Below the pieces are notes generated by a model. It saw only the letters and a program-made list of their open reading frames with translations. It was not told where the DNA came from and ran no database searches. From ANME-2 cluster archaeon (GTDB lineage: Archaea > Halobacteriota > Methanosarcinia > Methanosarcinales > Methanocomedenaceae): 64,000 nt of DNA. Below are positions 26,113 through 40,887 of the stretch, in pieces. How positions within the stretch are numbered: the stretch's first letter is position 1; every line of letters starts with the position of its first letter. Where the stretch lies: assembly GCA_014237145.1 (NCBI GenBank), contig JAAXOC010000110.1:25639-89638 (forward strand), in the 5' to 3' direction. A program made the position numbers and the translations under genes.

Positions 26113-26692
26113 GTTTCGCCCCGCACCCAAGGCAGAATTTCTCGTTAGCTTCCACTTCCCTGCCGCATTCGGGACATTGTGCCCTTGCACCGAGGTCGAT
26201 GTTTGAGCGCTGGATGATGTTATCTTTTATTTCAGTCTTGTGTACATGATACTGGATTATCCCCTCTTCAATGAATATCTTGATGTCAAGCCTTTTCTCG
26301 ATCTCATCCAGAATCCTGTGATAAAAGCCAGTCAGAGCTTCCTCCTTCTCAGCCCATGCCTTGAGTATCATCCTGGATCTGCGCCCGCCTACTACTTCAA
26401 TATAGGCGGCATAACGCAGTCCGGCAGCACCTTCGGCATAGAACATGCCCACGCCTGTGAATAACTGGGGTGTGGATGTGATCTCCGGCGGTATCATGTA
26501 CATGCTCATATCTTTCAGTATACGGGTGGCTATATTGAACAGGTTCTCTGCCGGGATGTCAAGGTCTTTGGTGTTCTCTTCGGCTTTTATCAGTTCTTCG
26601 GTTGCATTTCTCCAGCTGTCCTCGTCGATATCTTTTCTTTTCAGGACCGGGCAGACAATGCTTATCATTTTCTTTTTGATGTCAATAAACAC
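26096..26692 (-). CDS. soluble paralog consisting only of the conserved cytoplasmic module + zinc ribbon
   Basis: 198 aa; roughly two-thirds identical by eye to residues ~365-563 of the 19690..21381 product (SIVCPVLKRKD...PQLFTGVGMFYAEGAAGLRYAAYIEVVGGRRSRMILKAWAEKEEAL...IIQRSNIDLGARAQCPECGREVEANEKFCLGCGAKL); no TM. Confidence 0.65.
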   Translation of the reverse strand: MFIDIKKKMISIVCPVLKRKDIDEDSWRNATEELIKAEENTKDLDIPAENLFNIATRILKDMSMYMIPPEITSTPQLFTGVGMFYAEGAAGLRYAAYIEVVGGRRSRMILKAWAEKEEALTGFYHRILDEIEKRLDIKIFIEEGIIQYHVHKTEIKDNIIQRSNIDLGARAQCPECGREVEANEKFCLGCGAKLGGNS

Positions 26693-26710: not shown

Positions 26711-27775
26711 CTACGTATCCGCAATCACCTCTCGCACCGCAAGCAAATCCAGTCTCGACTGGGCCCTCATCATATTCTCTGATGGGTCTACGAAAATAAT
26801 GTTATTTCTTACAAGATAGCTTATCTCTGGCGTAATATGCCCATACGCATGGTTCACGTTCTCTTTTAACTTTGATAACTCCTCTACTAAGTTATCATAG
26901 ACAACTTCGTGAAGTTCTCCTCGAAACTCGATCTCCTCTCCGTAAGCCAGAAGAGAATTTAATAATTCGCTTATCTGGCTCATTCTGACCTTTAGCATCT
27001 TCGCAACCATTTTCTCCACATCTTCTACCCTTGTTAGTTCTACAAGGTAAACTGGCTTACCCCCGCAATAATTCCATGCAAGTTCCTTCTCTTTCTCGCT
27101 AAATTCATAGTTCTCCAAAAAACCCATTGTCGTATCTTTATCAAAATCGTCCACCAGCAGATATCTGCACCGCCCGGAGAGCATCGCCTCACTATAAACC
27201 TGCTCGATGAAGAGTGAATCCGATGAAACAGCAAAAATGTGGCACAGATGTAATTCCTTTGTCAGTCTGATAAAAAAATTAAATAATTTATACATCAATA
27301 ATTCATTGATCTTTATGTCTCCAATCACCTGCAGCTCATCGATGATCAACACCGGAATGCGGTTTTTTGATATCTCTGTAAAGAACTGCTCGATGTATTT
27401 GAACATATCTTTGCTTTTATCTTTCTTTTCAAATATCCGCTCAAACAGATTTATTGGTATCGGAATTCCACTGACTGCTCCCAGATCCTTTATTATCGAT
27501 TTCGCATACTCGGAAACGTTATCAACCCCGCCCCTCTCGTCGATCTCGAATAGGATGTTTAAGAAGTCTTCATAGTCAGTAATGAACCTCCCACGCAGAT
27601 TGACGTAGAAAGGGGCATAATCATCTGGCAGTTCTTTAACCAGATGGCTAATCATTGTGGTCTTTCCGCTGTTGATCGGACCGTAGACAAACGTTATCAG
27701 GGATGGCTCTGCATTCAGAATATCCATGATCTCTTTCGTCTCCTTTTCCCTATCGTAAAATTCAATTCGTCTCAT
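26711..27775 (-). CDS. archaeal ATPase (PF01637-like P-loop NTPase with C-terminal wHTH)
   Basis: 354 aa; RRIEFYDREKE...FVYGPINSGKTT Walker A, LIIDELQ Walker B context typical of Arch_ATPase. Confidence 0.75.
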   Translation of the reverse strand: MRRIEFYDREKETKEIMDILNAEPSLITFVYGPINSGKTTMISHLVKELPDDYAPFYVNLRGRFITDYEDFLNILFEIDERGGVDNVSEYAKSIIKDLGAVSGIPIPINLFERIFEKKDKSKDMFKYIEQFFTEISKNRIPVLIIDELQVIGDIKINELLMYKLFNFFIRLTKELHLCHIFAVSSDSLFIEQVYSEAMLSGRCRYLLVDDFDKDTTMGFLENYEFSEKEKELAWNYCGGKPVYLVELTRVEDVEKMVAKMLKVRMSQISELLNSLLAYGEEIEFRGELHEVVYDNLVEELSKLKENVNHAYGHITPEISYLVRNNIIFVDPSENMMRAQSRLDLLAVREVIADT

Positions 27776-27857: not shown

Positions 27858-28094
27858 TCACCCCATTATCCCCATTCCCTGAACTATCCACCAAATCATT
27901 CCCTGACCCTTATCGAAATGCCACTTTGCGACAAGCCCGGCATTCCCCTGCACCGACACCATAGCCCCGCAGTGTGGACACTTACTCACCTTTGCACCTG
28001 CCCCTACCCCTGCCGAAACCGGCTTAGCCGCATCCATCAACTTAGCATCCAGCTCCTGCCTGCGGTAGGCATCCTTGCGCTCCCTATCCTTCAT
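27858..28094 (-). pseudogene. orphan duplicated 3' fragment of the SPFH-zinc-ribbon gene (zinc-ribbon tail cassette), frameshifted
   Basis: DNA 27900-28094 aligns at about 90% identity by eye with 31350-31560 (3' end of 31347..32654); translation MKDRERKDAYRRQELDAKLMDAAKPVSAGVGAGAKVSKCPHCGAMVSVQ then diverges by frameshift. Confidence 0.65.
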
Positions 28095-28140: not shown

Positions 28141-31100
28141 TCACAATTTTGCCCCGCACTCAAGACAGAACTTCTGTTCATCCTCAACCTCTATGCCGCA
28201 GTTTGGGCACTTCTTCGTACCTGCGCCAATAGTTGACCGCTCGACATTAGAATCCTTAATGTGGATGCTTACATTGTTGGCATTATTTGCAATACTACTC
28301 CTACGCACCCAGCTATCCTCTATTACCACATTTCCATCGCATATTCCATTAATATCGCAGGCGCCTAAAAGGTTGCTCCGCATTATTTGGGAATCTTTGA
28401 TGGAGACATTGAATACAGGTGCGAGTTTTCCAAGAGCTTCTCCTCTTTTTGAAAAATTTCGTCCAAGCTCAGCAAACAAACCTATTATATCTTCCTGATC
28501 CGGAGCTGCCACAAAGATTTCAATTCTTTCAGTCTCTTTGCTTACACTTGCCTTGATTACAAGATCGATCATCTTAACCTTTGTCTTTCCGTAGTACCAT
28601 GTCTCATAGGTCTTGTCATCAGTAGTCTTAAAAGTCCTCACATGGCGCACATCATGCATTTGGATGACCTCGCGGCACAGTGTCAGTGCCTTATTTATAC
28701 TAACTCCACTGGGCAGTAAAAATTCCTTACTGCTCTGGGCAGGAAGCGAGGCAACAAGTTCCTTCAGCCTGCCAATATTTATGTCCTGCTCGGTTTTGAA
28801 CAATGGGCATACGATTGGAATTTTTACAGGTTCCATTCTAACCAAATCAGGTTTACCATAAGCATCTTTGTAGTCAATCCTGCAATTAATTACCCCACCC
28901 TTCGAGCAGATTAAGCCCTCAAAATACAATACGATTGTTTTATCGCCATTTGATGCTATATTTCCAAGCTGAATCTTTTCCTTTTTCATAGCATAAGTAT
29001 TTGGTTCGTGATGATCGAATCTCAAGACGTTCTCATCATGCTCGATATCAAGGGAGACATCTGTGGCTGTAAGCTGCATTTTGTTTTGTACTGATATTTT
29101 AAGACGGATAAACCCATTGAAGAAATCATCTTTTCGGAGAACCACAAACTTATTGGAATCAGTCATAACCTTTTCACTTGGACTCGTAACACTTTCCCCT
29201 GCCGTCTCTATGTCTGTACTTATCTGGATTATTGCTGTATCCTCAGTCTTGTAGACTCTATCCAAAATATCTTTAAATTCTACAACGTAGTCGACTGGAA
29301 CTTCTCCTTTTTCAGTTGGTTTTATGTTAACATTTATAGTTTTTTGCTTACCAGCCTCAAGTCTTTTGATAATTTTAAAGTCTCGCACCTCAAGAGCTGT
29401 TAAGAAAGTAATCGTTATGGCTACGGCATGAGCAGTTCCCTTGTTTGTTACTATTAAATCCCGATGTTTCCAGGCTTTGTACTCCATCTTTGGTGGCAGT
29501 TCTATGCTAATTGAAGGCTTGCTTTCGTCAATTAATTGTTCAGTTGTGCCCCTACTCTTATTAGCGTAACTTATCGCACTGTTGTAATCATTTGCATCAA
29601 AAGCAGACTGTGCTTTGGTGTTTAGTTCTTCACCACTCTGCACTGTGACGCCAAGCTTTTTGGCTTTTTCCAGTGAATTTTTCGCAATTTTTATTTTTTC
29701 TGCTGTATCAGTTCGCAACTGCTCTAACTCTCTCTGCTTGCGTGCCTGTTCTGCTTTTTGTTGTTCATAATCCTTCACTGCAATATTTATATTTTCACTG
29801 CATTTGTGTGCATACTCTTTAGCAGTTGCAAAATGTCCTGCATCAACTTCTTTTCGTGCGTCCTGCAACAATTGTTGAATACTCTGTTGAATATTCACGC
29901 CTCTGTTCATCGCATCCTGTAAATCAATTTCTACATCTTGAATGGCTGACTTTGCTTTTTCTAGCGGTGAATAGTTTTTAGTAGGTATAAAATTAGGTTC
30001 TAATGCTGAACGTTTTGCTGGCTTATGTGACTTTTGGGATGAAGTTTGTATCACTTCCGGCGCCATTCTCCTTCTTTTTCCAACAGCGACAATGCCACCT
30101 AATACAATCATAGCGCCTACCCCAATAAATAACCAGTTTGTATCATTTATATCACTTGTGGCTGGTATGGAATTAACGTTTAACAGATGGACACCATTGC
30201 CCCCAACTGCAAGAAAAGATCCGTCAGGAGAGGTTGAAACACTATGGACAAAAAAAGGTGTGTTATAAGTCCATAGTTTTTTGCCATTTCGGTTAAAGAA
30301 GTGGACTAAGCCGCCATTGCCTCCTGCTGCCACAAAGGAGCCATCTGTTGAGATAGAAACTCCCCAGATATCCTCATGCTTTATATTTCCCCAGAAATCT
30401 TTCTTCGCATTATAATTCCAGAGTTCAGCGCCATTATGGTCTAATAGGTAGATATTTCCATTCGTACCTCCTGCTGCCACATAGGAACCATCAGCAGATA
30501 TGGAAATTTTTTGGACACTTCTGTCATCATTTATAGCATATAAATCATAGTTCCAGAGTTTTTTACCATCGCCATTAAAGAGATATATATCAGAATCCAT
30601 TACAGCGGCGATAGAAGAACCATCTGCAGATATAGCGATGTCGTCTACTTCATGAACTGTATCATAAGTCCAAAGTATTTCACCATTGAGATTGAAAAGG
30701 TAGATGGTCCCATTTGGATGGTTTCGCCAGTCACCACTACCGACTGCCACATAGGCTCCATCTGAGGACATTGCGATGCCATTAACTTTATCAGATATAT
30801 TATAGTTCCATAGTTTCTCACCATCAAGATTAAACAGATAAACATTGTTATTATCCCAACCAACTCCCGCTGCCACATAAGAACCATCGTCGGATATAGC
30901 GACATCCCAAACAGCATATTCCATTTTATAGTTCCATAATTTTTCACCATTATTATTGAGGAGGATAACATTACCCATCTGTTCACCATAGCTATCACCA
31001 CTACCAACCGCAATATAGGAACCGTCAGCAGACATGGCGACATCCCAAGCAATCTGATCAAGTTCATAATTCCAATCGAAGTAATCTATTGGCTCTGTAG

Positions 31101-31173
31101 CTACTACACCTTGGACTTGACAAATAATAAGAATTAAAAAAAATAGTGATTTTTTACTTAATGACATATTCAT
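28141..31173 (-). CDS. large single-pass membrane protein: extracellular multi-blade beta-propeller + TM + coiled coil + beta-sandwich domains + conserved module + zinc ribbon
   Basis: ORF 28141..31248; likely start MNMSLSKKSLFFLILIICQVQG (signal peptide); ~8 repeats of SxDGSYVAxG...LWNY; TM WLFIGVGAMIVLGGIVAVGKRRR; QQKAEQARKQRELEQLR coiled coil; IVCPLFKTEQD segment; C-term SNVERSTIGAGTKKCPNCGIEVEDEQKFCLECGAKL. Confidence 0.7.
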   Translation of the reverse strand: MNMSLSKKSLFFLILIICQVQGVVATEPIDYFDWNYELDQIAWDVAMSADGSYIAVGSGDSYGEQMGNVILLNNNGEKLWNYKMEYAVWDVAISDDGSYVAAGVGWDNNNVYLFNLDGEKLWNYNISDKVNGIAMSSDGAYVAVGSGDWRNHPNGTIYLFNLNGEILWTYDTVHEVDDIAISADGSSIAAVMDSDIYLFNGDGKKLWNYDLYAINDDRSVQKISISADGSYVAAGGTNGNIYLLDHNGAELWNYNAKKDFWGNIKHEDIWGVSISTDGSFVAAGGNGGLVHFFNRNGKKLWTYNTPFFVHSVSTSPDGSFLAVGGNGVHLLNVNSIPATSDINDTNWLFIGVGAMIVLGGIVAVGKRRRMAPEVIQTSSQKSHKPAKRSALEPNFIPTKNYSPLEKAKSAIQDVEIDLQDAMNRGVNIQQSIQQLLQDARKEVDAGHFATAKEYAHKCSENINIAVKDYEQQKAEQARKQRELEQLRTDTAEKIKIAKNSLEKAKKLGVTVQSGEELNTKAQSAFDANDYNSAISYANKSRGTTEQLIDESKPSISIELPPKMEYKAWKHRDLIVTNKGTAHAVAITITFLTALEVRDFKIIKRLEAGKQKTINVNIKPTEKGEVPVDYVVEFKDILDRVYKTEDTAIIQISTDIETAGESVTSPSEKVMTDSNKFVVLRKDDFFNGFIRLKISVQNKMQLTATDVSLDIEHDENVLRFDHHEPNTYAMKKEKIQLGNIASNGDKTIVLYFEGLICSKGGVINCRIDYKDAYGKPDLVRMEPVKIPIVCPLFKTEQDINIGRLKELVASLPAQSSKEFLLPSGVSINKALTLCREVIQMHDVRHVRTFKTTDDKTYETWYYGKTKVKMIDLVIKASVSKETERIEIFVAAPDQEDIIGLFAELGRNFSKRGEALGKLAPVFNVSIKDSQIMRSNLLGACDINGICDGNVVIEDSWVRRSSIANNANNVSIHIKDSNVERSTIGAGTKKCPNCGIEVEDEQKFCLECGAKL

Positions 31174-31346
31174 AATACCCCATGAAGTTGGTTTAATTTC
31201 AAGTCTTATTATGTTCTTCCCACAGTTTATACACTTGCGGACACCCATACCAATATTTAACCGTTAGATGTCGTATATTTTACTTAAAAACACGTGTTTA
31301 CTACCAATATATAGATTTATTTCCAAATATCAATACCCTTTTTTTT

Positions 31347-32654
31347 TCAATCCATCTTCCCCCCACACTCCCCACAGAACTTCGCCTGCACCGGCACCAT
31401 AGCCCCGCAGTGTGGACACTTCCTCAACTTCGCACCAGAACTTGCACCTACCCCTGCCGATACCGGCTTGGCCGCATCCATCAATTTAGCATCCAGTTCC
31501 TGCCTTCGGTAAGCATCCTTGCGCTCCCTGTCCTCAACCCCCTTCATAAACTCAACCTTTTCATCTTTCGCTTTTGCCTCGCTTTCCCTAACCTTAGCCA
31601 GCGCCTCGATCTGCTCCGCCGAAAGATTACTCAACTCACGCCCTTCACTAATAGTCTTCGCAACATCGGCACCGTCCGCCTCAGTAACAGTCTTCATATA
31701 CTCCATATCCCGGCCGTGCTCTCTATCCTTCATATCCTGCTCAACCTCAAGCTCGGCACGCATACCCCTGGCCTTTGAAAGGTGCATCTCCTCCTTTAGC
31801 TTCAATGCCTCACGGGCCGCCTTGATATCTGCCTCGTCCTCTCGCTGCTCTCTTTCAATCTGTGCCCGAACATCTTTAAGCTCCTGCTCCCGCCTGAAAT
31901 CCTTTTCAACTGATATGGGAGCATGTCTGGCCCGTACTCCAGCCACATCCACCCTGCCTTCCCTTTCCAGTCCCCCCTCCTTCGAGATAGTATCAAGTTC
32001 AGCCAGTTCTTCCCCTGTCTGGAACTCCTGGTGAGCTTCAAGTATAGTCTTGTATTCGCCAAGGTCCCACTCTGCCGTATGTTTCAACAGTTCCAGGCCC
32101 CACATATCCAGTGTCTGTTCAAGCTGGGATTCCAGTTCATTCTCGATTGTGATCTGCAAGTCCCGGTTGCCGTATATATCTTCCATAGGCATACGGCTGA
32201 TCTCAGGTTCAAGTACCCGTGTCAATACCTCGCTCTGCAGGCGTGCGTATATATCCCGGACTCCAAGGGCACGTTCACCTTTCTTATCAGTAGTTGAATA
32301 AGCATATACCATTGAAAAGAACCGTTTTATATCCCCTATCTTGAAACGAATTAACCCGCTGCAACCAAGTTTCTGTTTATCTGCTGTCCAGAGTTCACCC
32401 ATGTTCCAGTTAAGGTCTTTGGGCGAAGTGTCCATTATGACTACATCCACGTCCTTTAAAAAATTCCCGGGTTTCAGCAATCCGCCGACACGGATCTTCC
32501 CGCTGTCCAGTACATCTGTTACCTCGCCGTTCTTGACTATCACAGCTTTTTCATTAGGCTGGATGATCAGGTCCTTTTTAAGGATACCACCCACCTGGTT
32601 TTTCGGTATATTCCTGGCAATATCACTTACATCTCGCAACCATTTCCGGGCCAT
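31347..32654 (-). CDS. SPFH/band-7 (flotillin-like) domain protein with long coiled coil and C-terminal zinc ribbon
   Basis: 435 aa; N-terminal SPFH-like segment (NEKAVIVKNGEVTDVLDSGKIRV...DVDVVIMDTSPKDLNWN...LIRFKIGDIKRFF), E/R/K-rich coiled coil, tail KCPHCGAMVPVQAKFCGECGGKMD; no TM helix. Confidence 0.6.
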   Translation of the reverse strand: MARKWLRDVSDIARNIPKNQVGGILKKDLIIQPNEKAVIVKNGEVTDVLDSGKIRVGGLLKPGNFLKDVDVVIMDTSPKDLNWNMGELWTADKQKLGCSGLIRFKIGDIKRFFSMVYAYSTTDKKGERALGVRDIYARLQSEVLTRVLEPEISRMPMEDIYGNRDLQITIENELESQLEQTLDMWGLELLKHTAEWDLGEYKTILEAHQEFQTGEELAELDTISKEGGLEREGRVDVAGVRARHAPISVEKDFRREQELKDVRAQIEREQREDEADIKAAREALKLKEEMHLSKARGMRAELEVEQDMKDREHGRDMEYMKTVTEADGADVAKTISEGRELSNLSAEQIEALAKVRESEAKAKDEKVEFMKGVEDRERKDAYRRQELDAKLMDAAKPVSAGVGASSGAKLRKCPHCGAMVPVQAKFCGECGGKMD

Positions 32655-32776
32655 TCTCTGTAAACCTCCTTGATATTATTAATGAGAAAATATTATATAT
32701 AATGTTTTCTATTGTATACAATTGAAGACAAGGAGGTAGTCACATCACCATAAGATCACATGCAATCAGTGCAAGG

Positions 32777-32902
32777 GTGTCCGGGGACCTGAAAAATTAC
32801 CTCGATGCTCTTGTCGAACGCGGAATTGCAATAAACACCTCTGAGGCTGTCAAGATATGTATCAGGTATGCTAAACAAAAAAAGATGGAGGAGGAACTTT
32901 AA
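32777..32902 (+). CDS. possible small ribbon-helix-helix (CopG/Arc-like) protein, start uncertain
   Basis: Unlisted ORF (<60 aa): (ITIRSHAIS)ARVSGDLKNYLDALVERGIAINTSEAVKICIRYAKQKKMEEEL* ends one codon before the ESCRT-III-like gene; only in-frame canonical start is GTG at 32777, which would truncate the beta-strand, so it may be non-canonical or decayed. Confidence 0.3.
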   Translation: MSGDLKNYLDALVERGIAINTSEAVKICIRYAKQKKMEEEL

Positions 32903-33460
32903 ATGGGATTGTTAAGTAAAAAAATATCACCGGATGAACTGAAAACAAAATTGTCTATCCACGAGCAGCGGCTCACAGCCAGGGAAAACGAACTAAAGAA
33001 AAAGAAAGACAGATCCAGGGAAGAGTCAAAACAGGCCCTGGCGTCCGGTAACGACAGAGAGTACAGGGTATCTTCACGCAGGTACAGCATGCTTGACGGG
33101 CAGGTCGGCACCATAAGCAATATGGTGGAGATGGCACAGAGCATGACCGATGTCATAGAAATGCAGCAGGGTCTGAAAGAAGTAGTGGAGATCGGGAACG
33201 ACCTGGGCAAATACCAGAAGCAGCTGGGTATCAATACCGGACAACTTGAAGGTGCTATCACAAATATCAGGACAAGCATGGAGAAGGTCAACGTTGCTAC
33301 TAACACCATGACATCAGCCATGGATGCAGCTATGAGCGGGGGCCAGGAACTGACTGATGTGCAGGACAGTTTAAGAGCCGAACTGATGGCTGAGATCGAA
33401 GGCGATTCAGTCGATAAGCAGGAACTGGACAAGCAGATCAAGGAAGAGTTGAAGCAGTAA
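32903..33460 (+). CDS. ESCRT-III family protein (Snf7/CHMP-like)
   Basis: 185 aa; N-terminus MGLLSKKISPDELKTKLSIHEQRL... closely parallels CHMP2 (MDLLFGRRKTPEELLRQNQRALNRAMRELDRE...); basic N-half, acidic C-half, all coiled coil. Confidence 0.7.
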   Translation: MGLLSKKISPDELKTKLSIHEQRLTARENELKKKKDRSREESKQALASGNDREYRVSSRRYSMLDGQVGTISNMVEMAQSMTDVIEMQQGLKEVVEIGNDLGKYQKQLGINTGQLEGAITNIRTSMEKVNVATNTMTSAMDAAMSGGQELTDVQDSLRAELMAEIEGDSVDKQELDKQIKEELKQ

Positions 33461-33509
33461 ATATTTCTGGGCGAATGCATTATTTGCTCCCTGGAAAGGA
33501 AAGTGGTCT

Positions 33510-33989
33510 ATGGCAAGCGATATTGACTTAGATAATGAAATATCTGTAACACCTGAACAGATCATCTGGATGTTAAGTTCATGTGACAAGGACTTTATTA
33601 TTGATATTCCAACCATATTGATCAACAATGCAGATCGAATTGATTTTAATGAATTGATCAATATTGCTTTTGAAGCTGGATCAGGTTACAGTTTACTTGC
33701 GCTTATCGATGTGGCAAATAAGTTGGAGCACAATGATGCTTTTTTCAAGGTACTGTCCCGGCAGTATCCTTCTAACATTGAGGGAAATGTAATTGAAGAT
33801 AATATTTTTCCAGTCCATAAGTTCAGGCAGCTGATAAAGCGGTCTTTTTTAGAGAGGATCGAGGAGCGGTGGAATGTTCGTATTGCTTTCACATTTGATG
33901 ATTTCTATAAAATATACCGTGACTATCATCTGCTGCCTGTGCATGGTGAGGGATTAAGGAAATATTTTGGTGATATTATTGAGATTTAA
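33510..33989 (+). CDS. hypothetical protein between ESCRT-III-like and Vps4-like genes
   Basis: 159 aa, acidic, no recognisable domain. Confidence 0.4.
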   Translation: MASDIDLDNEISVTPEQIIWMLSSCDKDFIIDIPTILINNADRIDFNELINIAFEAGSGYSLLALIDVANKLEHNDAFFKVLSRQYPSNIEGNVIEDNIFPVHKFRQLIKRSFLERIEERWNVRIAFTFDDFYKIYRDYHLLPVHGEGLRKYFGDIIEI

Positions 33990-34035
33990 AGCGAATCAAT
34001 TTCGGTATCAGAGAATCTAATGAAAATATTTACAT

Positions 34036-34170
34036 TATAGTCTACTGAATAACAATCAATAAAATATTAACCTCATATAAACGCGATAAACACAGATAGG
34101 ATGCAGCAAATCTGCGTTCATTTGCGTTTATCTGCGGTTCGATTTCCCATAAGTTTGGTGGGAGACTATA
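34036..34170. mobile_element. ~135-bp MITE-like element, copy 1 (TIR tatagtct / agactata; palindromic core ataaacacagat...gcgttcatttgcgtttatctgcggtt)
   Basis: Inverted termini tatagtct (34036-34043) and agactata (34163-34170); core shares ataaacacagat, gcgttcatYtgcg and atctgcggtt with the copy at 59241-59373. Confidence 0.6.
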
Positions 34171-34230
34171 ATACTCACGACAGTATCGTTTAGAAAAGCA
34201 ATTTAAAGAAATACAAATAAGGAATAAAAA

Positions 34231-35373
34231 ATGCCCACATCATCATCCCTCTCTGCCGAAGCCCGTGGCCTTGCAAAAGCAGCAAAAACAGCAGAGCAGG
34301 CTGGAAATATCGAAAAAGCACGTTCACTATACCTCAAGGCAGCAGACAAGTTCAACCAGGCCTCCTCCCTTAACCCTGAGAAGCTGGATAAGAACACCCA
34401 ACACGGTCTGGCAAAACATTTCTATGAACACGGCCGCTCGCTGGGCAAACAACCAGCTTCAATTGGAGGCAGTTCCGGGTCACTGGACGAACCCATTCTC
34501 TCAAAAGATGAACTGATAGTAAGTGAAAAACCCGACATCGGATTTAGTGACATAGGCGGCCTTGATAGCGTAAAAGAAGATATGAAAAAAGCCATCATCT
34601 ATCCCTTCACGCATAAAAAACTCTACGATTACTATAATCAAAAACCAGGTGGGGGCGTACTTCTCTACGGACCGCCCGGGTGTGGCAAGACCATGATCGC
34701 AAAAGCAGCAGCATCCGAGTGTGATGCTGATTTCATCAATGTTGAGACCAGTACCATAATGAGCAAATGGGTCGGTGAATCCGAAAAAAGCATTAAACAG
34801 GTATTCTCGATTGCCAGGGAATGCAACCGTGCGATCATATTTTTCGATGAGTTCGATGCAGTGGCTGGAAGACGCGGGGAGTTAGAGGATTATGCCAAGC
34901 GCATAGTCAATGAACTGCTCCAGCAGATGGACGGCATGGACAAAAATGATAACATCCTTGTGCTTGCAGCAACCAACGAACCGTGGGCTATCGATCCTGC
35001 ACTACGCCGTCCCGGCAGGTTTAAAAAACTGATATTCATACCACCACCCGACCTTGAAGCAAGAAAAGCGATATTCAATATTTATCTTCAAAAACTTCCA
35101 CTCGAAAACAATGTAGACGCTGGAACTCTGTCAAATAAGACAGATATGTATTCAGGAGCAGATATAAAGGCCATTTGTGACGATGCGGCAGAGATACCAT
35201 TACAGGAAGCATTGGAAGGGAAAGAAGCTAGGAAGATAGCTCTAAATGATTTTAGTACTGTACTCTCAAGTAGAAGGTCTTCCATCATACCATGGCAGAG
35301 GCTGGCAGTGGAGCAGGTAAGGAAAAGCGGTGAGGAAAATATTTTCAAAGAGATTATCGAACTTGAAAAATAA
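34231..35373 (+). CDS. Vps4/CdvC-like AAA+ ATPase with N-terminal MIT domain
   Basis: 380 aa; N-terminal three-helix MIT-like region (AEARGLAKAAKTAEQAGNIEKARSLYLKAADKFNQA), Walker A LLYGPPGCGKTM, Walker B IIFFDEFD, second region of homology, Vps4-type C-terminal helix. Confidence 0.8.
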   Translation: MPTSSSLSAEARGLAKAAKTAEQAGNIEKARSLYLKAADKFNQASSLNPEKLDKNTQHGLAKHFYEHGRSLGKQPASIGGSSGSLDEPILSKDELIVSEKPDIGFSDIGGLDSVKEDMKKAIIYPFTHKKLYDYYNQKPGGGVLLYGPPGCGKTMIAKAAASECDADFINVETSTIMSKWVGESEKSIKQVFSIARECNRAIIFFDEFDAVAGRRGELEDYAKRIVNELLQQMDGMDKNDNILVLAATNEPWAIDPALRRPGRFKKLIFIPPPDLEARKAIFNIYLQKLPLENNVDAGTLSNKTDMYSGADIKAICDDAAEIPLQEALEGKEARKIALNDFSTVLSSRRSSIIPWQRLAVEQVRKSGEENIFKEIIELEK

Positions 35374-36004: not shown

Positions 36005-36877
36005 TTACAACAGGCCGTAATGTTCAATGTTCCAGTTGGCAATATCCTGTATCTTGGATATCTCCTCTTTTCCGCCTTCCATTGTGAACAAGTGCTTGAA
36101 CCTACCCTGTGCTTTGAGGTATTCTTCCACAGGCTTTGGCTTTTTTACCTTCCTGACTGAAGTTATCTCACCATCTTCTACCTCGTACAAAGGCCACAGT
36201 GCAGTCTCGACTGCCAGTTTACCGATCTCCACAGTCTTAGAGGTATCAAACCTCCAGCCCGTTGCACAAGGAGCATGGGCATGGATATAAGTAGCCCCCT
36301 CAATGTCCACTGCCTTTTTGACCTTGCGCATCATATCCTTTGGATAGGAGATAGACGTGGTGGCCACATAAGGCGAACCGTGGGCAAGTATAATGGCAGG
36401 CATGTTCTTCTTGGGCCTGGAGTTGCCAAAACTCTGGCTGCCAGGCGGGCTGGTTGAAGTTGAAGCATTAAATGGAGTGGCTCCACTGCGCTGTACACCT
36501 GTGTTCATGTATGCCTCGTTATCGATACACACATAGGTGATATCGTCACCGCGCTCGAAAGCCCCTGATATTCCAAGTATTCCTATATCCACTGTAGCGC
36601 CGTCGCCACCCATGGCTATGACTTTTGTATCACCTTTACGTCCAAGTGCCCGCAAGGCCGCCTCAATACCCGAAGCTACAGATGCGGTGTTCTCGAACAA
36701 TGAATGTATCCAGGGCACTTCCCAGGCTGATTCAGGGTACGGTGTGGTCATCACTTCCAGACAGCCGGTGGGATTTACAACTATGGCATCGTATCCTACC
36801 GCTTCCAGTACGAAATTTGCTGCCATTGCATCGCAACAGCCCGCGCATCCCCTATGTCCAGGTGCCAGTCTGCTCAT
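36005..36877 (-). CDS. porB: pyruvate:ferredoxin oxidoreductase beta subunit (TPP-binding)
   Basis: 290 aa; GHRGCAGC and GGDG TPP/Mg-binding motifs. Confidence 0.9.
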
Positions 36878-38067
36878 AAGAGTTCACCTCGCAGATCAGC
36901 ATATTCACTTTCAACCTTAATACCGGATTTTATAGCCTGTGCGGCCTTATCAATGATCATTTGAATGGTGCTCATCGGAATATCCCGCCCGCCGTGTCCC
37001 AGCATGAAACCCATCACAGGTACATTGATATCTGTATTATATAAGCAGGATTTAACCTCGGTAAACAAGGCACCTTCGTTCAGGCCAACTGAAATGTTCT
37101 TATCCAGGGTCACGACTATGGCAGCATCTGAGATCGCACTAGGTATGACTTCCACCGGGAAAGGCCTAAATGTCCTGACCTTGATCAGGCCCACCTTGAT
37201 ACCCTGGCTGCGGGCTTTATCAATTACATCCTTAATAGTGCCCACCACCGAGCCCATTGCCATTAACAGGATCTCGGCATCCTCTGCCATATATGGTTCA
37301 ATGAGTCCGCCGTAGTAACGGCCGAATATCGTCTTGAAATCCTCGGCAGCCTTCTCTATCTTACCAAGGGCTACATCCATTCCTTTTTGTTGCAGGTACC
37401 TGAATTCCGTATAGGCGGACGGATCAGCAAAAGTGCCAAATGACAATGGGTTACGGGTGTCAAGCACATGCTCCGGGTCATAGGTAGGCAGGAACTCATC
37501 AGTCAGGTCCTGCTCAAGTAATATCACAGGTTCAAATACATGTGAAAGGATGAAACCGTCCATGCAGACCATGGCTGGCAGCATGACATCTTTGTCCTCT
37601 GCTATTTTGAAGGACTGGGCTGTCATATCGCTCATTTCCTGGATATTTTCCGCATATAACTGTATCCAGCCCGTATCACGCTGGGATATGCTGTCCTGGT
37701 GATCATTCCATATACTGATGGGTGCACTCACGGCCCGGTTTACTACTGTCATAACAATCGGCAGTCGCATACCTGAAGCATTGAACAGCACTTCGTGCAT
37801 CAGTTCCAGTCCCTGGGAAGATGTGGACGAATATGTCCTGGCGCCCGTAGCACTGGCACCTACCAGTGCGGAAAGCGCAGAGAACTCGCTCTCTACATTT
37901 ATATATTCACAATTGGGTATTTTACCATCGGCCATGAACTGAGACAGGTCTTCTACGATATGGGTCTGTGGTGTGATGGGATATGCCGATATTACATTGG
38001 GCCTGCAAACCTTTACAGAATGGGCTATTGCATAAGAACCTTCTACCACTGTCATTTTACCAGACAT
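36874..38067 (-). CDS. porA: pyruvate:ferredoxin oxidoreductase alpha subunit
   Basis: 397 aa; 4-nt overlap with porB; typical PorA length and sequence. Confidence 0.9.
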
Positions 38068-38068
38068 A

Positions 38069-38329
38069 TTATTTCTCCTCCAGCACCATTTCTATGGCAT
38101 CCTTGGGACATTCATTGGCACAGATGCCGCAGCCTTTACAGTAATCATAATCAAAGATAACGTACTTGTCTTCCTGCTCTTGGATACTGCTGTCCGGGCA
38201 TAACAATGAACACAGCCCGCATTTGACACACTTATCCTTATTGTACAGGGGCCTGAAATTCCTCCAGCCACCGGTCTTATTGACCCTGGTAGTACCGGGC
38301 TTTACAGCTCCACCGATCGTGACCTTCAT
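38069..38329 (-). CDS. porD: pyruvate:ferredoxin oxidoreductase delta subunit (2x[4Fe-4S])
   Basis: 86 aa; [12 protein letters not shown] and [12 protein letters not shown]. Confidence 0.9.
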
Positions 38330-38871
38330 TGTCTCGCCTCCATGCGGAGATAAGCTTCAAGCACGGCCTGGGAATTCTTTTCGCCCACTTTACCGGGGAA
38401 GCGTTCAGCTACAGCATTCTGGATGCTTTTAACTTTGATTTCGCCTGTGGCGCCAGCAAAAGCACCCAGCAGAATGGTATTAACAATGGGACGGCCAATA
38501 ATGTCAAGGGCAATCCTGGTTGCATCTATTGTTATGACCTCTGCTTCTGTGTCAAGGTCAAAGGTATCAGGTGAAAACTCAGTGTTTATCAATATCTTAC
38601 CGTCAGGCTTAGCACCCGATGCCACGTCCACTGTCTCGATGAGTGTGGCATCCTGTACGATCACATAATCAGGTTCGTATATCTGGCTGCGAAGCCTGAT
38701 GGGTTGTTCGCTGATTCTTGTAAAAGCCATTATCGGAGCGCCCCTCCGCTCCACTCCGAAGGCAGGGAATGCCTGGGAATATTTTCCATCTTCAAATGCT
38801 GCAACTGCCAGCAGTTCGGCGGCAGTAACTGAACCCTGTCCTCCACGGCCATGGATACGTATTTCCTTCAA
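38326..38871 (-). CDS. porG: pyruvate:ferredoxin oxidoreductase gamma subunit
   Basis: 181 aa; HGRGGQG motif; first gene of porGDAB order on the minus strand. Confidence 0.9.
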
Positions 38872-39826: not shown

Positions 39827-40771
39827 TTAATTCTTGATTTTCCTTATCACAAATAACATAGCCAGTGATGTCAATGCAGCCAAGACTCCAAACCCTGGAG
39901 TCCCTGATGTTCCCTCGTCACCTTCGGTTGTAGTGTCCGCAGGCCCTGATGTGTCAGTATCGACCGGAGTCGTTGCTGTTGCATCTGGTGCATCTGGTTC
40001 ATCTGCTACCATCGGGTGGCATACAGAACACTTTAAACCAGTACTGGAGGTTTTAAGAGCTATCTGGTTGTATCCGTGAAGTGTTTCAACATTGTGGCAT
40101 AGTATACATTCCGGGATCATGATCTTTTCCGTAGCCTGGTCTATATGACATTTTTCACATGCCACATCAGGAATATGGATAAAGTGAGGAATCTCACTTG
40201 CACTCACATTGACAGAACCAGGCCTATGACATTTGTAACATGAATTCGGATCAGAAGCCTCGCCATGAAGCACTGCAACATCAGAAGAGACGTGGCAGCC
40301 CTGGCAGACAATTATATCGCCCGCACCTGTAACTGGTGAAACAATATTCGCTGCTGAACCATGGCACGCACTACAGGATTCTGTTGGTCCACCGTGAACG
40401 TCCAGCAGGTCACCGTGGCAGTGTGCACACAGAGTATCTGACATCATTTCCAAATGTAAACTATCAAGCCCTACATGGCAGTACGAACAATCCTCAGTTT
40501 GTACCTTTTTAATGTGAACATTATGTATCGAACCTGTATGGCATTTGTAACATGAAGGATCTCGATCGGTTAATGTTGCACCGTGACATCCTTGGCATGT
40601 GGCTGATGTCATTTCATGTATCACATGCGTATCTAGATTATGGCAGACCGCCTTACAGTTCGTGTCTTCTGCCATTTTGCTTACTGTATCATATTCTGGC
40701 CCTTCTGCTTGAACCGCAGTGACCATTGAGAATATTACTATTAATAATAGCAAAGCTTTGATTTGCTTCAA
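39827..40771 (-). CDS. secreted multiheme c-type cytochrome (about 10-11 heme motifs) with Thr/Asp/Pro-rich linker and PGF-CTERM anchor
   Basis: 314 aa; signal peptide; CxxCH motifs CQGCHG, CYKCHT, CSYCHV, CAHCHG, CSACHG, CQGCHV, CYKCHR, CEKCHI, CILCHN, CSVCHP plus a CxxxCH (CKAVCHN); C-terminus TPGFGVLAALTSLAMLFVIRKIKN. Confidence 0.85.
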   Translation of the reverse strand: MKQIKALLLLIVIFSMVTAVQAEGPEYDTVSKMAEDTNCKAVCHNLDTHVIHEMTSATCQGCHGATLTDRDPSCYKCHTGSIHNVHIKKVQTEDCSYCHVGLDSLHLEMMSDTLCAHCHGDLLDVHGGPTESCSACHGSAANIVSPVTGAGDIIVCQGCHVSSDVAVLHGEASDPNSCYKCHRPGSVNVSASEIPHFIHIPDVACEKCHIDQATEKIMIPECILCHNVETLHGYNQIALKTSSTGLKCSVCHPMVADEPDAPDATATTPVDTDTSGPADTTTEGDEGTSGTPGFGVLAALTSLAMLFVIRKIKN

Positions 40772-40887
40772 ATTTTCTCCTCCTTTTATTATTTTGTATT
40801 TAATAATTGATTTCCATCTCCCTTATGCTATTATTAACTTTTCGTTTTAATCATAGCATAAAGTAGGTACTCATTATTGTCAAGTGT

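What the first reader, a model, noticed from the sequence alone, without database searches (positions are those of the whole stretch)
31347..35373. ESCRT-III (CHMP-like) plus MIT-AAA Vps4-like ATPase module in a euryarchaeon, divergent from an SPFH-zinc-ribbon gene
The 32903..33460 product aligns well by eye to the eukaryotic CHMP2/Vps2 N-terminus and has the basic-N/acidic-C coiled-coil organisation of ESCRT-III. The 34231..35373 product has a MIT-like three-helix N-domain fused to a Vps4-type AAA cassette. The SPFH/flotillin-like zinc-ribbon gene (31347..32654) is transcribed divergently from the same 250-bp intergenic region. A possible RHH-type small ORF (32777..32902) abuts the ESCRT-III start. 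ESCRT-III/Vps4 machinery is well known as the Cdv system of TACK/Asgard archaea. As far as I am aware, ESCRT-III/Vps4 pairs are less typical of methanogen-lineage euryarchaea. An SPFH scaffold next to an ESCRT-III/Vps4 pair suggests membrane-microdomain remodelling, vesicle budding or membrane repair. The zinc-ribbon tail shared with the neighbouring receptor-like family suggests that family may be cargo or adaptors for this machinery.
Basis: partly seen in the sequence, partly recalled or inferred. Interest (0 to 1): 0.85.

Follow-up and report, generated by a model that had tools for sequence, protein, structure and literature searches.

The report
Known euryarchaeal ESCRT gene cluster
This is a real membrane-remodelling (ESCRT-III plus Vps4) gene cluster in an uncultured Methanosarcinales archaeon, but this type of cluster was already described in 2024, so it is a new member of a known kind; two details seen here (a regulator gene and a domain fusion) appear in none of the papers I searched.

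Summary

- **ESCRT-III:** the 185-aa protein has no significant ESCRT-III match on its own. A profile of its wider family hits solved ESCRT-III structures and not PspA/Vipp1. Its model's 16 best Foldseek matches are all ESCRT-III.
- **Vps4:** the 380-aa ATPase has an N-terminal MIT-like region whose best solved match is crenarchaeal CdvC/Vps4.
- **SPFH:** the divergent gene is a Band_7/SPFH protein with a zinc ribbon.
- **Linkage:** gene order is conserved across about 39 Methanosarcinales genome loci.

This is the "Meth_adaptin" ESCRT system of Makarova et al. 2024 (PMC10936438). That system comprises Vps4, ESCRT-III, SPFH-coiled-coil-zinc-ribbon and adaptin-appendage/zinc-ribbon proteins. 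One of that paper's ESCRT-III accessions sits in a 90% cluster whose representative is 69% identical to the window protein.

New details:
- The small upstream ORF is a conserved ~51-aa ribbon-helix-helix protein (dN/dS about 0.07), translationally coupled to ESCRT-III.
- It lies behind a conserved TATA box plus palindrome.
- Its ATG is lost in this lineage.
- Methanoperedens Vps4 orthologues carry a C-terminal diadenylate cyclase domain.

The parts
19690..21381 (-). Receptor-like single-pass membrane protein: signal peptide, PEGA domain, transmembrane helix, cytoplasmic Ig-like (CARDB) region and C-terminal zinc ribbon. It is a homologue of the published 'adaptin appendage' ESCRT component (arCOG15284).
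   Evidence: Pfam PEGA 1.3e-8, CARDB, Zn_Ribbon_1. Homologues (42-69% identity) lie next to the SPFH gene in most Methanosarcinaceae loci. That position is the arCOG15284 gene in the paper's M. methylutens table. The adaptin fold itself was not tested here.
21385..22533 (-). 382-aa protein, homologue of the 'coiled-coil + C-terminal wHTH' gene that follows Vps4 in other genomes. Here it sits on the far side of the cluster.
   Evidence: tblastn gives 24-36% identity over 50-97% of its length to the gene downstream of Vps4 in L009-L038. The paper's table names that gene in M. zhilinae. No Pfam or PHROG hit.
23651..24952 (-). DUF2341 ectodomain, transmembrane helix and zinc-ribbon tail: another member of the receptor-like set.
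   Evidence: Pfam DUF2341 3.4e-32, Zn_Ribbon_1. It shares a 45-55-aa tail with the other zinc-ribbon proteins.
26096..26692 (-). 5'-truncated copy (198 aa) of an adaptin-like zinc-ribbon gene.
   Evidence: 64% identical to residues 368-562 of the 563-aa protein. It corresponds to the C-terminal part of a longer gene next to SPFH in L001 (95% identity).
27943..28090 (-). Duplicated fragment of the 3' end of the SPFH gene, a rearrangement scar.
   Evidence: blastn: 154 bp, 88% identical to 31381..31534. The 78-aa ORF 27858..28094 repeats the SPFH C-terminal peptide.
28141..31248 (-). 1035-aa receptor-like protein: PQQ/WD40-type beta-propeller ectodomain, transmembrane helix, coiled coil, Ig-like region and C-terminal zinc ribbon.
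   Evidence: Pfam PQQ_2 4e-14, WD40, CARDB, Zn_Ribbon_1 4.4e-8. Its tail is shared with the other zinc-ribbon proteins and with SPFH.
31347..32654 (-). SPFH/Band_7 domain, long charged coiled coil and C-terminal zinc ribbon (arCOG15283 type).
   Evidence: Pfam Band_7 1.8e-11, above cut-off; zinc-ribbon families. Divergent from the RHH/ESCRT-III genes in 36 of the 40 related genome loci at 47-63% identity (88-90% in the window's own clade). Same arrangement as in the paper's tables.
32686..32722 (.). Conserved promoter block: TATA-like TATTATATATAA (32691..32702), TGTTTTC, then the perfect 12-bp palindrome ATTGTATACAAT (32711..32722), a candidate operator.
   Evidence: The block is conserved in nearly all 40 loci while its flanks do not align. 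The exact palindrome occurs once in the window. Promoter and operator roles are inferred.
32744..32902 (+). It has no canonical start codon in this lineage and is stop/start-coupled to ESCRT-III.
   Evidence: A 51-aa family is present in 39/40 loci. dN/dS is about 0.07, with 48/49 third positions variable against 16/49 second positions. Weak but consistent hits to RHH_1, RelB, ParD, CdrS and NikR. Some sources name it Arc/MetJ-type RHH regulator. The Shine-Dalgarno sequence AAGGAGGT at 32730..32737 is retained.
32903..33460 (+). ESCRT-III (Snf7-superfamily) protein, 185 aa.
   Evidence: Family profile against PDB: Heimdall ESCRT-IIIB 1.2e-8, Loki Vps20/32/60-like 4e-7, CHMP1B, Snf7, CdvB; no PspA. 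11/39 relatives hit Pfam Snf7. AF2 gives four long helices. The top 16 Foldseek hits are all ESCRT-III. 69% identical to the representative (P0021) of the 90% cluster that contains the paper's WP_048205007.1.
33510..33989 (+). 159-aa ORF of unknown function, a lineage-specific insertion between ESCRT-III and Vps4.
   Evidence: Found only in the closest relatives L001-L003 (87-92%). Absent from all other loci, where Vps4 follows ESCRT-III within about 40-250 bp. No Pfam, NCBIfam or PHROG hit.
34231..35373 (+). Vps4/CdvC-like MIT-AAA ATPase, 380 aa.
   Evidence: AAA 1.2e-42, AAA_lid_3, MIT 3.3e-6 below cut-off. The NCBIfam CdvC model aligns over the full length, residues 3-352. The N-terminal 140 aa match CdvC 4lcb best, E 1.1e-11, including the MIT region. 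A profile of the N-domain hits the calpain-7 MIT. 55% identical to the M. zhilinae protein, which occupies the same position in the paper's locus.

Best explanation
**What it is.** The window carries a 'Meth_adaptin'-type euryarchaeal ESCRT cluster spanning about 19.7-35.4 kb.

**Layout.** Its core is a small operon: RHH regulator, then ESCRT-III, then (after a lineage-specific inserted ORF) a MIT-AAA Vps4. This operon is transcribed divergently from an SPFH-coiled-coil-zinc-ribbon gene. Beyond SPFH lie several single-pass membrane proteins. Each has a varied ectodomain (PQQ propeller, PEGA, DUF2341). All end in a shared C-terminal zinc ribbon, and two of them also have a cytoplasmic Ig-like region.

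**Proposed mechanism (inferred from the families, not shown here).**
1. The receptor-like proteins bind cargo or sense something outside the cell.
2. Their cytoplasmic adaptin-like and zinc-ribbon modules, together with the SPFH scaffold, mark a membrane patch.
3. ESCRT-III polymerises on that patch and deforms or seals the membrane.
4. Vps4 docks through its MIT domain, probably on the conserved acidic/amphipathic C-terminal helix of ESCRT-III, and uses ATP to remodel or disassemble the polymer.
5. [quoted passage not shown]

**Likely role.** Methanosarcinales are generally held to divide with FtsZ (background knowledge; the same argument is made in the reviews read; no FtsZ gene was looked for here). 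The likely role is therefore protein sorting or vesicle budding, or membrane repair, rather than cytokinesis.
For: - **Genes and domains:**
- **ESCRT-III identity:**, plus the AF2 model. UniRef names several orthologues 'Snf7 family protein'.
- **Vps4 identity:**
- **Conserved order** adaptin-Znr(-) SPFH(-) <> RHH(+) ESCRT-III(+) Vps4(+) CC-wHTH(+) in Methanolobus, Methanococcoides, Methanomethylovorans and Methanoperedens genomes.
- **Published description of the same system:** PMC10936438. There is an accession-level link through WP_048205007.1.
- **RHH gene under purifying selection and stop/start-coupled to ESCRT-III** (TAATG or TAAATG).
- **Conserved TATA box plus palindrome:**
- **Conserved C-terminal [DE]L[DE]x[KR]I[KR] motif** in about half of ESCRT-III family members, against 0.03-0.07 expected.
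- **Shared zinc-ribbon tail** among SPFH and the receptor-like proteins.
Against: - No functional data exist for any member of this system, so every mechanistic step is inference.
- The window ESCRT-III protein and its tight family give only marginal direct matches: IST1 at E 1.2 and Snf7 at E 0.014. Homology rests on a transitive profile and on fold ranking with modest E-values (best 1.9e-3).
- On the AAA cassette alone, CDC48-D2 scores as high as CdvC.
- Pfam MIT is below its cut-off and Vps4_C is absent. The NCBIfam CdvC score of 256 is far below the equivalog cut-off of 650.
- No canonical MIM1 or MIM2 was found.
- ProX and the GOLD-domain protein of the published system were not found among the ORFs scanned.
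- The RHH gene has no canonical start codon here, and the AF2 monomer did not form the ribbon strand.
Confidence: 0.8

Rival explanations
1. The genes are the same, but the job is PspA-like. The ESCRT-III protein is recruited by the SPFH scaffold to damaged or stressed membrane and seals it. It would be an envelope or osmotic stress repair module, not a cargo-sorting or vesicle-budding machine. The receptor-like proteins would act as stress sensors.
For: - In Bacillus, the SPFH protein YdjI localises PspA to the membrane (cited in PMC10936438 and PMC7619361).
- Reviews argue that repair is the primordial ESCRT-III role in organisms that keep FtsZ.
- Published loci include the osmoprotectant-binding protein ProX.
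- Methanoperedens Vps4 orthologues are fused to a diadenylate cyclase domain. From background knowledge, c-di-AMP is an osmoregulatory signal.
Against: - The protein groups with Snf7-type ESCRT-III, not PspA.
- A dedicated Vps4 and several adaptin-like receptor proteins fit sorting better than simple patching.
- No ProX or DAC was found in this window.
Confidence: 0.3
2. The ESCRT-III/Vps4 pair takes part in cell division, as the Cdv system does in Thermoproteota.
For: ESCRT-III/Vps4 drives cytokinesis in Sulfolobales. It is proposed to do so in FtsZ-less Thermoplasmata. An RHH regulator next to a division-type gene recalls aCcr1-cdvA and CdrS-ftsZ2.
Against: - No CdvA is present in the cluster.
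- Methanosarcinales keep FtsZ (background knowledge; the same argument is made).
- The cluster is rich in receptor-like and scaffold genes and is patchily distributed. The protein-family search found only 78 cluster representatives among 1.84 billion.
Confidence: 0.05
3. This is not an ESCRT system. A generic coiled-coil protein happens to sit next to a CDC48/PAN-like unfoldase that works on membrane or zinc-ribbon proteins.
For: - The window protein alone has no significant ESCRT-III hit.
- The AAA cassette scores as well against CDC48-D2 and PAN models.
- Public annotations call the orthologues 'transitional endoplasmic reticulum ATPase' or '26S protease regulatory subunit'.
Against: - The family profile hits only ESCRT-III among significant PDB matches. 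The alignments are colinear and full length.
- Foldseek's top 16 hits are all ESCRT-III.
- The N-terminal region of the ATPase matches the CdvC MIT and linker best.
- The strict adjacency across genera is the Vps4/ESCRT-III signature.
Confidence: 0.05

Closest known systems
'Meth_adaptin' ESCRT system of Methanosarcinales (Makarova et al. 2024, mBio, PMC10936438; representative locus Methanosalsum zhilinae WP_013898571-578)
   Same: - Same parts: Vps4 (arCOG01307), ESCRT-III (arCOG00454), SPFH-coiled-coil-zinc-ribbon (arCOG15283), adaptin-appendage/zinc-ribbon proteins (arCOG15284) and a coiled-coil-wHTH protein.
- Same divergent SPFH <> ESCRT-III arrangement.
- The window proteins are 47-70% identical to the Methanosarcinaceae counterparts.
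   Different: - A 159-aa ORF is inserted between ESCRT-III and Vps4.
- The coiled-coil-wHTH gene has moved to the far side of the cluster.
- There are more receptor-like genes (PQQ, PEGA, DUF2341 types), one truncated, plus a duplicated SPFH 3' fragment.
- No ProX or GOLD protein was found.
- The conserved RHH gene and the promoter palindrome are not mentioned in the paper.
- No supplementary file held for the paper mentions Methanoperedens; two of them were cut when stored.
Crenarchaeal Cdv system (CdvA, CdvB/ESCRT-III, CdvC/Vps4)
   Same: An ESCRT-III protein is encoded next to a MIT-AAA ATPase. CdvC is the best solved match for the N-terminal region, and CdvB is the best Foldseek match.
   Different: - No CdvA.
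- No winged-helix extension on the ESCRT-III protein.
- No MIM2.
- The NCBIfam CdvC equivalog threshold is not reached (256 against 650).
- The host lineage divides with FtsZ, so a division role is unlikely.
Bacterial PspA with the SPFH protein YdjI (Bacillus subtilis)
   Same: An ESCRT-III-superfamily protein is genetically linked to an SPFH scaffold.
   Different: The protein here is of Snf7 type, not PspA type. It has a dedicated Vps4-like ATPase, which bacteria lack.
RHH regulators of archaeal division genes: aCcr1 (represses cdvA in Sulfolobales) and CdrS (co-transcribed with ftsZ2 in Halobacteria)
   Same: All involve a small RHH protein tied to a membrane-scission gene. [quoted passage not shown]
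   Different: - Here the RHH gene sits immediately upstream of, and is translationally coupled to, ESCRT-III itself.
- Sequence similarity to CdrS is only weak (5/18 members, best E 0.016).
- DNA binding is untested.

Membership tests
ESCRT-III / Snf7 superfamily | Significant sequence match of the protein itself to Snf7/CHMP profiles or to solved ESCRT-III proteins | tested here: not met
   No Pfam Snf7 or NCBIfam hit at E<=1, and no PDB hit. The tight-family profile gives only IST1 at E 1.2.
ESCRT-III / Snf7 superfamily | Homology detectable through family profiles (transitive) | tested here: met
   The wider profile A2 hits Heimdall ESCRT-IIIB at 1.2e-8 (full length), Loki Vps20/32/60-like at 4e-7, CHMP1B at 7e-6, Snf7 at 1e-5 and CdvB at 6e-4. 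11/39 members hit Pfam Snf7, best 9e-7. The intermediate profile A6 is only marginal, at 0.014.
ESCRT-III / Snf7 superfamily | Helical-hairpin core (alpha1-alpha2) followed by alpha3-alpha5 | tested here: met
ESCRT-III / Snf7 superfamily | Basic N-terminal half and acidic C-terminal half | tested here: met
   Net charge per 20-aa block: +2, +3, +2, -2, -4, +1, +1, -4, -3, -1.
ESCRT-III / Snf7 superfamily | C-terminal MIT-interacting motif (MIM1 or MIM2) | tested here: inconclusive
   The strict MIM1 pattern is found in 0/30 and 0/39 members, and there is no proline-rich MIM2. A conserved terminal [DE]L[DE]x[KR]I[KR] motif occurs in 15/30 and 19/39 members against 0.03-0.07 expected. Binding was not tested.
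ESCRT-III / Snf7 superfamily | Polymerises on membranes | not testable with these tools
   Needs biochemistry or multimer modelling.
PspA / Vipp1 branch | Closer to PspA/Vipp1 than to Snf7-type proteins | tested here: not met
   No PspA or Vipp1 among 62 PDB profile hits, nor in the Foldseek top 50. No PspA_IM30 among the Pfam families most often hit by family members.
Vps4 / CdvC | N-terminal MIT domain | tested here: met
   Pfam MIT E 3.3e-6 at 27.6 bits, just under the cut-off of 30. The N-terminal 140 aa match CdvC 4lcb best at E 1.1e-11, with the alignment starting at residue 9. The N-domain profile hits the calpain-7 MIT at E 0.006 and the SKD1 MIT at 0.8.
Vps4 / CdvC | Single AAA cassette with Walker A/B and an aromatic pore loop | tested here: met
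   AAA 1.2e-42 and AAA_lid_3. The translation shows GPPGCGKT, IIFFDEFD and SKWVGESEK. The resemblance of SKW.GESEK to the Vps4 pore loop is from memory and was not tested.
Vps4 / CdvC | Vps4_C domain (PF09336) | tested here: not met
   Not detected in the C-terminal 90 aa even at E<=10.
Vps4 / CdvC | Reaches the NCBIfam CdvC equivalog threshold | tested here: not met
   256 bits against a cut-off of 650, although the alignment is full length. The CDC48 model scores 263.7 bits on the AAA core alone.
Vps4 / CdvC | Phylogenetic placement with Vps4 rather than CDC48, PAN or katanin | not tested
The paper assigns the M. zhilinae and M. methylutens proteins at this position to arCOG01307 and describes a Meth_adaptin clade of its Vps4 tree. 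The window protein is 55-62% identical to the Methanosarcinaceae orthologues.
Vps4 / CdvC | Encoded next to an ESCRT-III gene | tested here: met
   Vps4 lies immediately downstream of ESCRT-III in about 30 loci. In the window it is 770 bp downstream, with an inserted ORF between.
SPFH / Band_7 | SPFH domain above the Pfam threshold | tested here: met
   Band_7 at 44.9 bits against 23.6.
Meth_adaptin ESCRT system (Makarova 2024) | Vps4 + ESCRT-III + SPFH-coiled-coil-zinc-ribbon in one locus, with SPFH divergent | tested here: met
   the paper's tables; the accession link.
Meth_adaptin ESCRT system (Makarova 2024) | Proteins with an adaptin appendage region (Ig-like + TBP-like), one carrying a zinc ribbon | tested here: inconclusive
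   Homologues of the gene at the arCOG15284 position are present. They give Ig-like (CARDB) and zinc-ribbon hits. The appendage fold was not modelled.
Meth_adaptin ESCRT system (Makarova 2024) | ProX and a GOLD-domain protein in the neighbourhood | tested here: not met
   Neither was found among 35 window ORFs scanned with Pfam. Not every ORF in the window was scanned.
Ribbon-helix-helix (Arc/MetJ/CopG) regulators | Strand-helix-helix sequence pattern matching RHH profiles | tested here: inconclusive
   All hits are below the curated cut-offs: RHH_1 in 16/26 members (best 1e-3) and RelB in 9/26; RelB/DinJ 12/18, ParD 11/18, CdrS 5/18 and NikR. JGI and NCBI name some members Arc/MetJ-type RHH. 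The AF2 monomer shows two helices with no strand, which is not decisive for a fold that forms its ribbon in the dimer.

The most novel reading that the evidence does not exclude
The euryarchaeal ESCRT operon may be controlled by its own RHH repressor. This regulator is translationally coupled to ESCRT-III and is not mentioned in the 2024 paper or the other papers searched. [quoted passage not shown]

It would be a third case, after aCcr1-cdvA and CdrS-ftsZ2, of RHH control of archaeal membrane-scission genes.

A second observation points the same way. Vps4 is fused to a diadenylate cyclase domain in Methanoperedens, and ProX sits in the published loci. Together these suggest the system is a c-di-AMP-linked osmotic or membrane-stress response rather than a constitutive sorting machine.
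Probability: 0.3. Interest if true: 0.6.

Novelty: new member of a known kind. Interest (0 to 1): 0.33.

Why it matters
The core finding confirms that the Meth_adaptin ESCRT system extends into uncultured, Methanoperedens-related (ANME-2-like) Methanosarcinales. It also shows the cluster is evolutionarily plastic there: insertions, a relocated gene, expanded receptor genes and a lost start codon. That is useful for cataloguing but not surprising.

The side observations could help the field, which still has no functional data for any euryarchaeal ESCRT system:
- **A regulator and operator.** A conserved RHH regulator with a defined candidate operator gives a direct experimental handle through EMSA, reporter assays and de-repression.
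- **A testable signal.** The Vps4-diadenylate cyclase fusion suggests a concrete physiological cue, osmotic or membrane stress, to test.

Tried and rejected
- **Single-sequence searches of the 185-aa protein** against Pfam, NCBIfam and PDB gave nothing significant. The tight-family profile A1 gave only IST1 at E 1.2. The intermediate profile A6 was marginal.
- **Pfam scan of ten distant family members** found no Snf7 hit in that subset.
- **MIM and Vps4_C checks.** Strict MIM1 and proline-rich MIM2 motifs are absent. Pfam Vps4_C is absent.
- **AAA family assignment.** Whole-protein PDB ranking of the ATPase is dominated by two-domain p97/CDC48 entries, so it cannot assign a family. The list of database homologues moves from orthologues straight to CDC48 entries for the same reason. 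I built no independent AAA phylogeny because no trusted reference sequences were available.
- **RHH structure.** A rerun with database homologues gave a two-helix monomer without the ribbon strand.
- **Search for more copies of the palindrome** (a possible regulon) in the window found only the one exact site. Two-mismatch hits were at chance level.
- **The 159-aa ORF** has no Pfam, NCBIfam or PHROG match and no similarity to the Methanoperedens Vps4-DAC protein.
- **Search for a decayed DAC domain** downstream of the window's Vps4 was negative.
- **The sigma-70-type promoter and terminator scan** does not apply to archaeal promoters and added nothing.

Full report
**1. Observation**

- 31347..32654(-), 435 aa
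- 32777..32902(+), 41 aa
- 32903..33460(+), 185 aa
- 34231..35373(+), 380 aa

The 435-aa protein has a Band_7/SPFH domain above the Pfam threshold (E 1.8e-11). Its C-terminal zinc ribbon scores 23-26 bits in several zinc-ribbon families, just under their cut-offs.

The 380-aa protein has one AAA cassette (E 1.2e-42) and an AAA lid. Its MIT match lies just under Pfam's cut-off, at 25.4 bits for the whole protein and 27.6 bits for the N-terminal 100 aa, against a cut-off of 30.

**2. Is the 185-aa protein an ESCRT-III?**

On its own it matches nothing. There is no Pfam or NCBIfam hit and no PDB hit below E 0.25.

*Family size and distribution.* The family is small and mostly from Methanosarcinales. 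A search of 5.8 billion clusters found 70 relatives, and UniRef names several of them 'Snf7 family protein'. A search of 1.84 billion representatives found 78.

*Profile searches against PDB.* Support grows as the profile widens:
- Close relatives only: IST1 at E 1.2.
- Extended to relatives with E<=1e-22: Snf7 and Heimdall ESCRT-IIIB at E about 0.015, colinear from the N-terminus.
- Including all ~190-aa relatives: Heimdall ESCRT-IIIB 1.2e-8 (residues 1-173 against 1-176), Loki Vps20/32/60-like 4e-7, CHMP1B 7e-6, Snf7 1e-5 and CdvB 6e-4. No PspA or Vipp1 appears among the 62 hits.

Eleven of 39 family members hit Pfam Snf7, best E 9e-7.

*Other features.* The N-terminal half is net basic and the C-terminal half net acidic. 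No canonical MIM1 or MIM2 is present. The extreme C-terminus carries a family-conserved [DE]L[DE]x[KR]I[KR] motif, ELDKQIKEEL in the window. It occurs in about half of the members, against 0.03-0.07 expected.

I conclude that the protein belongs to the Snf7-type branch of the ESCRT-III superfamily. The evidence is remote-homology grade.

**3. Is the ATPase a Vps4?**

*Where the evidence is ambiguous.* Over the AAA cassette alone, CDC48-D2 and CdvC score about equally:
- PDB: 213.7 bits for one p97 domain against 215.5 bits for full-length CdvC.
- NCBIfam: CDC48 263.7 bits on residues 96-337, and CdvC 256 bits on residues 3-352. The latter is far below the 650-bit equivalog cut-off.

*Where it is decisive.* The N-terminus settles the matter.
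- Residues 1-140 match Acidianus CdvC/Vps4 (4lcb) best, at E 1.1e-11. The alignment runs from residue 9 through the MIT region and linker. All other AAA proteins match only from about residue 91 onward, at E>=1.6e-6.
- A profile of the N-domain from 19 orthologues hits the calpain-7 MIT domain (E 0.006) and the SKD1/VPS4B MIT.

Pfam Vps4_C is not detected. I could not build an independent rooted phylogeny.

**4. Linkage**

A scan of one genome per species returned 40 loci. I mapped the window's proteins onto them.

In Methanolobus, Methanococcoides, Methanomethylovorans and unnamed Methanosarcinaceae the order is conserved: adaptin-like zinc-ribbon gene (-), SPFH (-), then divergently the small ORF (+), ESCRT-III (+), Vps4 (+) and a coiled-coil protein (+).

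- The window's closest relatives are MAGs labelled 'Methanosarcinales archaeon' (95-98% identity for ESCRT-III).
- Candidatus Methanoperedens comes next, at 76-77%.
- A Thermoplasmata MAG keeps only the adaptin-like gene, ESCRT-III and Vps4.

**5. It is already described**

Makarova et al. 2024 (mBio, PMC10936438) define a 'Meth_adaptin' clade of archaeal ESCRT systems. Its neighbourhoods encode:
- Vps4
- ESCRT-III
- two adaptin-appendage proteins, one with a zinc ribbon and one with a GOLD domain
- ProX

Their table for Methanosalsum zhilinae and Methanococcoides methylutens shows the same divergent SPFH <> ESCRT-III-Vps4 arrangement. A 'coiled-coil and C-terminal wHTH' gene lies after Vps4.

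The paper's M. methylutens ESCRT-III accession, WP_048205007.1, is a member of the 90% cluster represented by P0021. P0021 is 69% identical to the window protein. The M. zhilinae ATPase is 55% identical to the window's.

[quoted passage not shown] They note the SPFH-PspA link in Bacillus. Earlier work had already reported euryarchaeal ESCRT-III homologues.

**6. The window's version of the cluster**

Left of SPFH lie several receptor-like genes:
- a 1035-aa PQQ-propeller/TM/coiled-coil/Ig-like/zinc-ribbon protein (28141..31248)
- a 563-aa PEGA/TM/Ig-like/zinc-ribbon protein (19690..21381)
- a 433-aa DUF2341/TM/zinc-ribbon protein (23651..24952)
- a 198-aa 5'-truncated copy (26096..26692)

All four share a C-terminal tail of about 45 aa ending in the zinc ribbon. 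SPFH shares the ribbon itself.

The homologue of the coiled-coil/wHTH gene is at 21385..22533, not after Vps4.

Several features point to local rearrangement:
- a 154-bp, 88% identical duplicate of the SPFH 3' end at 27943..28090
- an archaeal ATPase gene (PF01637)
- a DUF4258 gene and a CopG-antitoxin gene, which sit between cluster members

No ProX or GOLD protein was found among the ORFs scanned.

The 159-aa ORF between ESCRT-III and Vps4 occurs only in the closest relatives and matches no family.

**7. The small ORF**

The conserved protein is about 51 aa. Its consensus is MxRSYPVSARVSEDSKxYLDxLVExGIAINxSEALKICIRYAKQKKMEEEL. It has an ATG preceded by a GGAG-type Shine-Dalgarno sequence.

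It is present in 39 of 40 loci, always directly before ESCRT-III, with overlapping or abutting stop and start (TAATG, TAAATG or TAAGTG).

*Evidence that it is a real coding gene:*
- Median dN/dS is 0.07.
- 48 of 49 third codon positions vary, against 16 of 49 second positions.
- The other two frames are full of stop codons.

*Evidence that it is an RHH protein.* The matches are weak but consistent:
- Pfam RHH_1 in 16/26 members and RelB in 9/26.
- NCBIfam RelB/DinJ, ParD, CdrS and NikR.
- JGI and NCBI label some members 'Arc/MetJ-type ribbon-helix-helix transcriptional regulator'.
- The AF2 monomer gives two helices without the strand. This is uninformative for a fold that forms its ribbon in the dimer.

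*The start-codon problem.* In the window and its four closest relatives the ATG is replaced by ATC ACC ATA (32744..32752). The Shine-Dalgarno sequence AAGGAGGT (32730..32737) and the upstream codons are retained. Three readings remain open: translation starts at a near-cognate codon; a ribbon-less 41-aa form is made from GTG 32777; or the gene is beginning to decay.

*The promoter block.* Upstream lies a DNA block conserved across genera while its flanks do not align: AA.TATTATATATA.TGTTTT.CCATTGTATACA. In the window it runs TATTATATATAA (32691..32702), then TGTTTTC, then the perfect palindrome ATTGTATACAAT (32711..32722).

The palindrome sits where a transcription start would be expected, about 25 nt after the TATA box. 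That spacing rule is general knowledge of archaeal promoters. The exact palindrome is unique in the window.

I infer autoregulation by the RHH protein. This resembles aCcr1 on cdvA in Sulfolobales and CdrS with ftsZ2 in Halobacteria. Neither 'RHH' nor 'ribbon-helix' occurs in the main text of the Makarova paper. The M. zhilinae and M. methylutens entries I read in its supplementary neighbourhood table list no gene in that gap.

**8. Seen in relatives**

Vps4 orthologues in Candidatus Methanoperedens (558-576 aa, 71-75% identical) carry a C-terminal DisA_N/diadenylate cyclase domain. My own scan confirms it at 62.6 bits against a cut-off of 27.

In one such genome this gene lies about 10 kb beyond SPFH, after further zinc-ribbon genes. 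The window has no such domain. A literature search for Vps4 together with diadenylate cyclase found nothing relevant.

**9. Mechanism and verdict**

*Shown computationally:* gene content, remote homology, conserved order, coding constraint on the RHH gene, stop/start coupling and the conserved promoter block.

*Inferred from knowledge of the families:*
- ESCRT-III polymerises on the membrane.
- Vps4 engages its C-terminus through the MIT domain and remodels the polymer.
- SPFH scaffolds a membrane patch.
- The receptor-like proteins provide cargo or signal specificity through their ectodomains and dock through their adaptin-like and zinc-ribbon modules.
- The RHH protein represses the operon.

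A sorting or vesicle role and a repair or stress role cannot be separated with the present data. A division role is unlikely.

The finding is real and correctly interpreted. It is a new member of a kind described in 2024, so its interest is modest. The RHH/operator module and the Vps4-DAC fusion are the parts worth following up.

Noticed in passing
window 32744..32902 and 32686..32722; loci L001-L040 at the equivalent position: The small ORF before ESCRT-III is a conserved ~51-aa RHH-like protein, under strong purifying selection and stop/start-coupled to ESCRT-III. It sits behind a conserved TATA box plus the 12-bp palindrome ATTGTATACAAT. It is not mentioned in the 2024 ESCRT paper. In the window's clade the ATG is replaced by ATC ACC ATA.
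   Followed up: yes
P0191-P0203 (e.g. P0200); L041 10001..11683; L042: Vps4 orthologues of Candidatus Methanoperedens are fused to a C-terminal diadenylate cyclase (DisA_N/DAC) domain. In one genome the gene lies about 10 kb beyond SPFH in the same cluster. This suggests a c-di-AMP link and was not found in the literature searched.
   Followed up: partly
window 33510..33989: A 159-aa ORF with no family match is inserted between ESCRT-III and Vps4. It is present only in the closest relatives (L001-L003). In L001 the same gap also holds a 4.6-kb insertion carrying another PQQ-type receptor gene. The ESCRT-III/Vps4 junction therefore looks like an insertion hot spot in this lineage.
   Followed up: partly
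window 27943..28090 (within ORF 27858..28094): A 154-bp, 88% identical duplicate of the 3' end of the SPFH gene (31381..31534) lies just downstream of the 1035-aa receptor gene. It is a likely scar of the rearrangement that moved genes in this cluster.
   Followed up: partly
window 26096..26692 and 26711..27775: The adaptin-like zinc-ribbon gene that sits next to SPFH in relatives is cut down here to its C-terminal 198 aa. An 'archaeal ATPase' (PF01637) gene lies directly upstream of the fragment.
   Followed up: partly
window 22936..23232 and 25780..26190: A CopG-antitoxin-family gene and a DUF4258 gene are interspersed among the ESCRT cluster genes.
   Followed up: no
L039 9070..11750 (Thermoplasmata MAG): A Thermoplasmata genome carries a 50% identical ESCRT-III. 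It has an adaptin-like zinc-ribbon gene upstream and Vps4 downstream, all on one strand. No SPFH or RHH gene is nearby, so this is a reduced version of the system outside Methanosarcinales.
   Followed up: no
one search hit list (orthologues of window 34231..35373): Public annotations of the Vps4 orthologues include 'AAA family ATPase', 'transitional endoplasmic reticulum ATPase', '26S protease regulatory subunit' and 'Microtubule-severing ATPase', but never Vps4. Pfam MIT is precomputed only for the window's nearest relatives. The system would therefore be missed by keyword searches.
   Followed up: no
window 36005..38871 and 39827..41724: Directly right of the cluster are the pyruvate:ferredoxin oxidoreductase subunit genes, read from the translations only. 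Beyond them are a multihaem c-type cytochrome gene and a cytochrome b gene (Pfam). This fits a Methanoperedens/ANME-2-like host.
   Followed up: no
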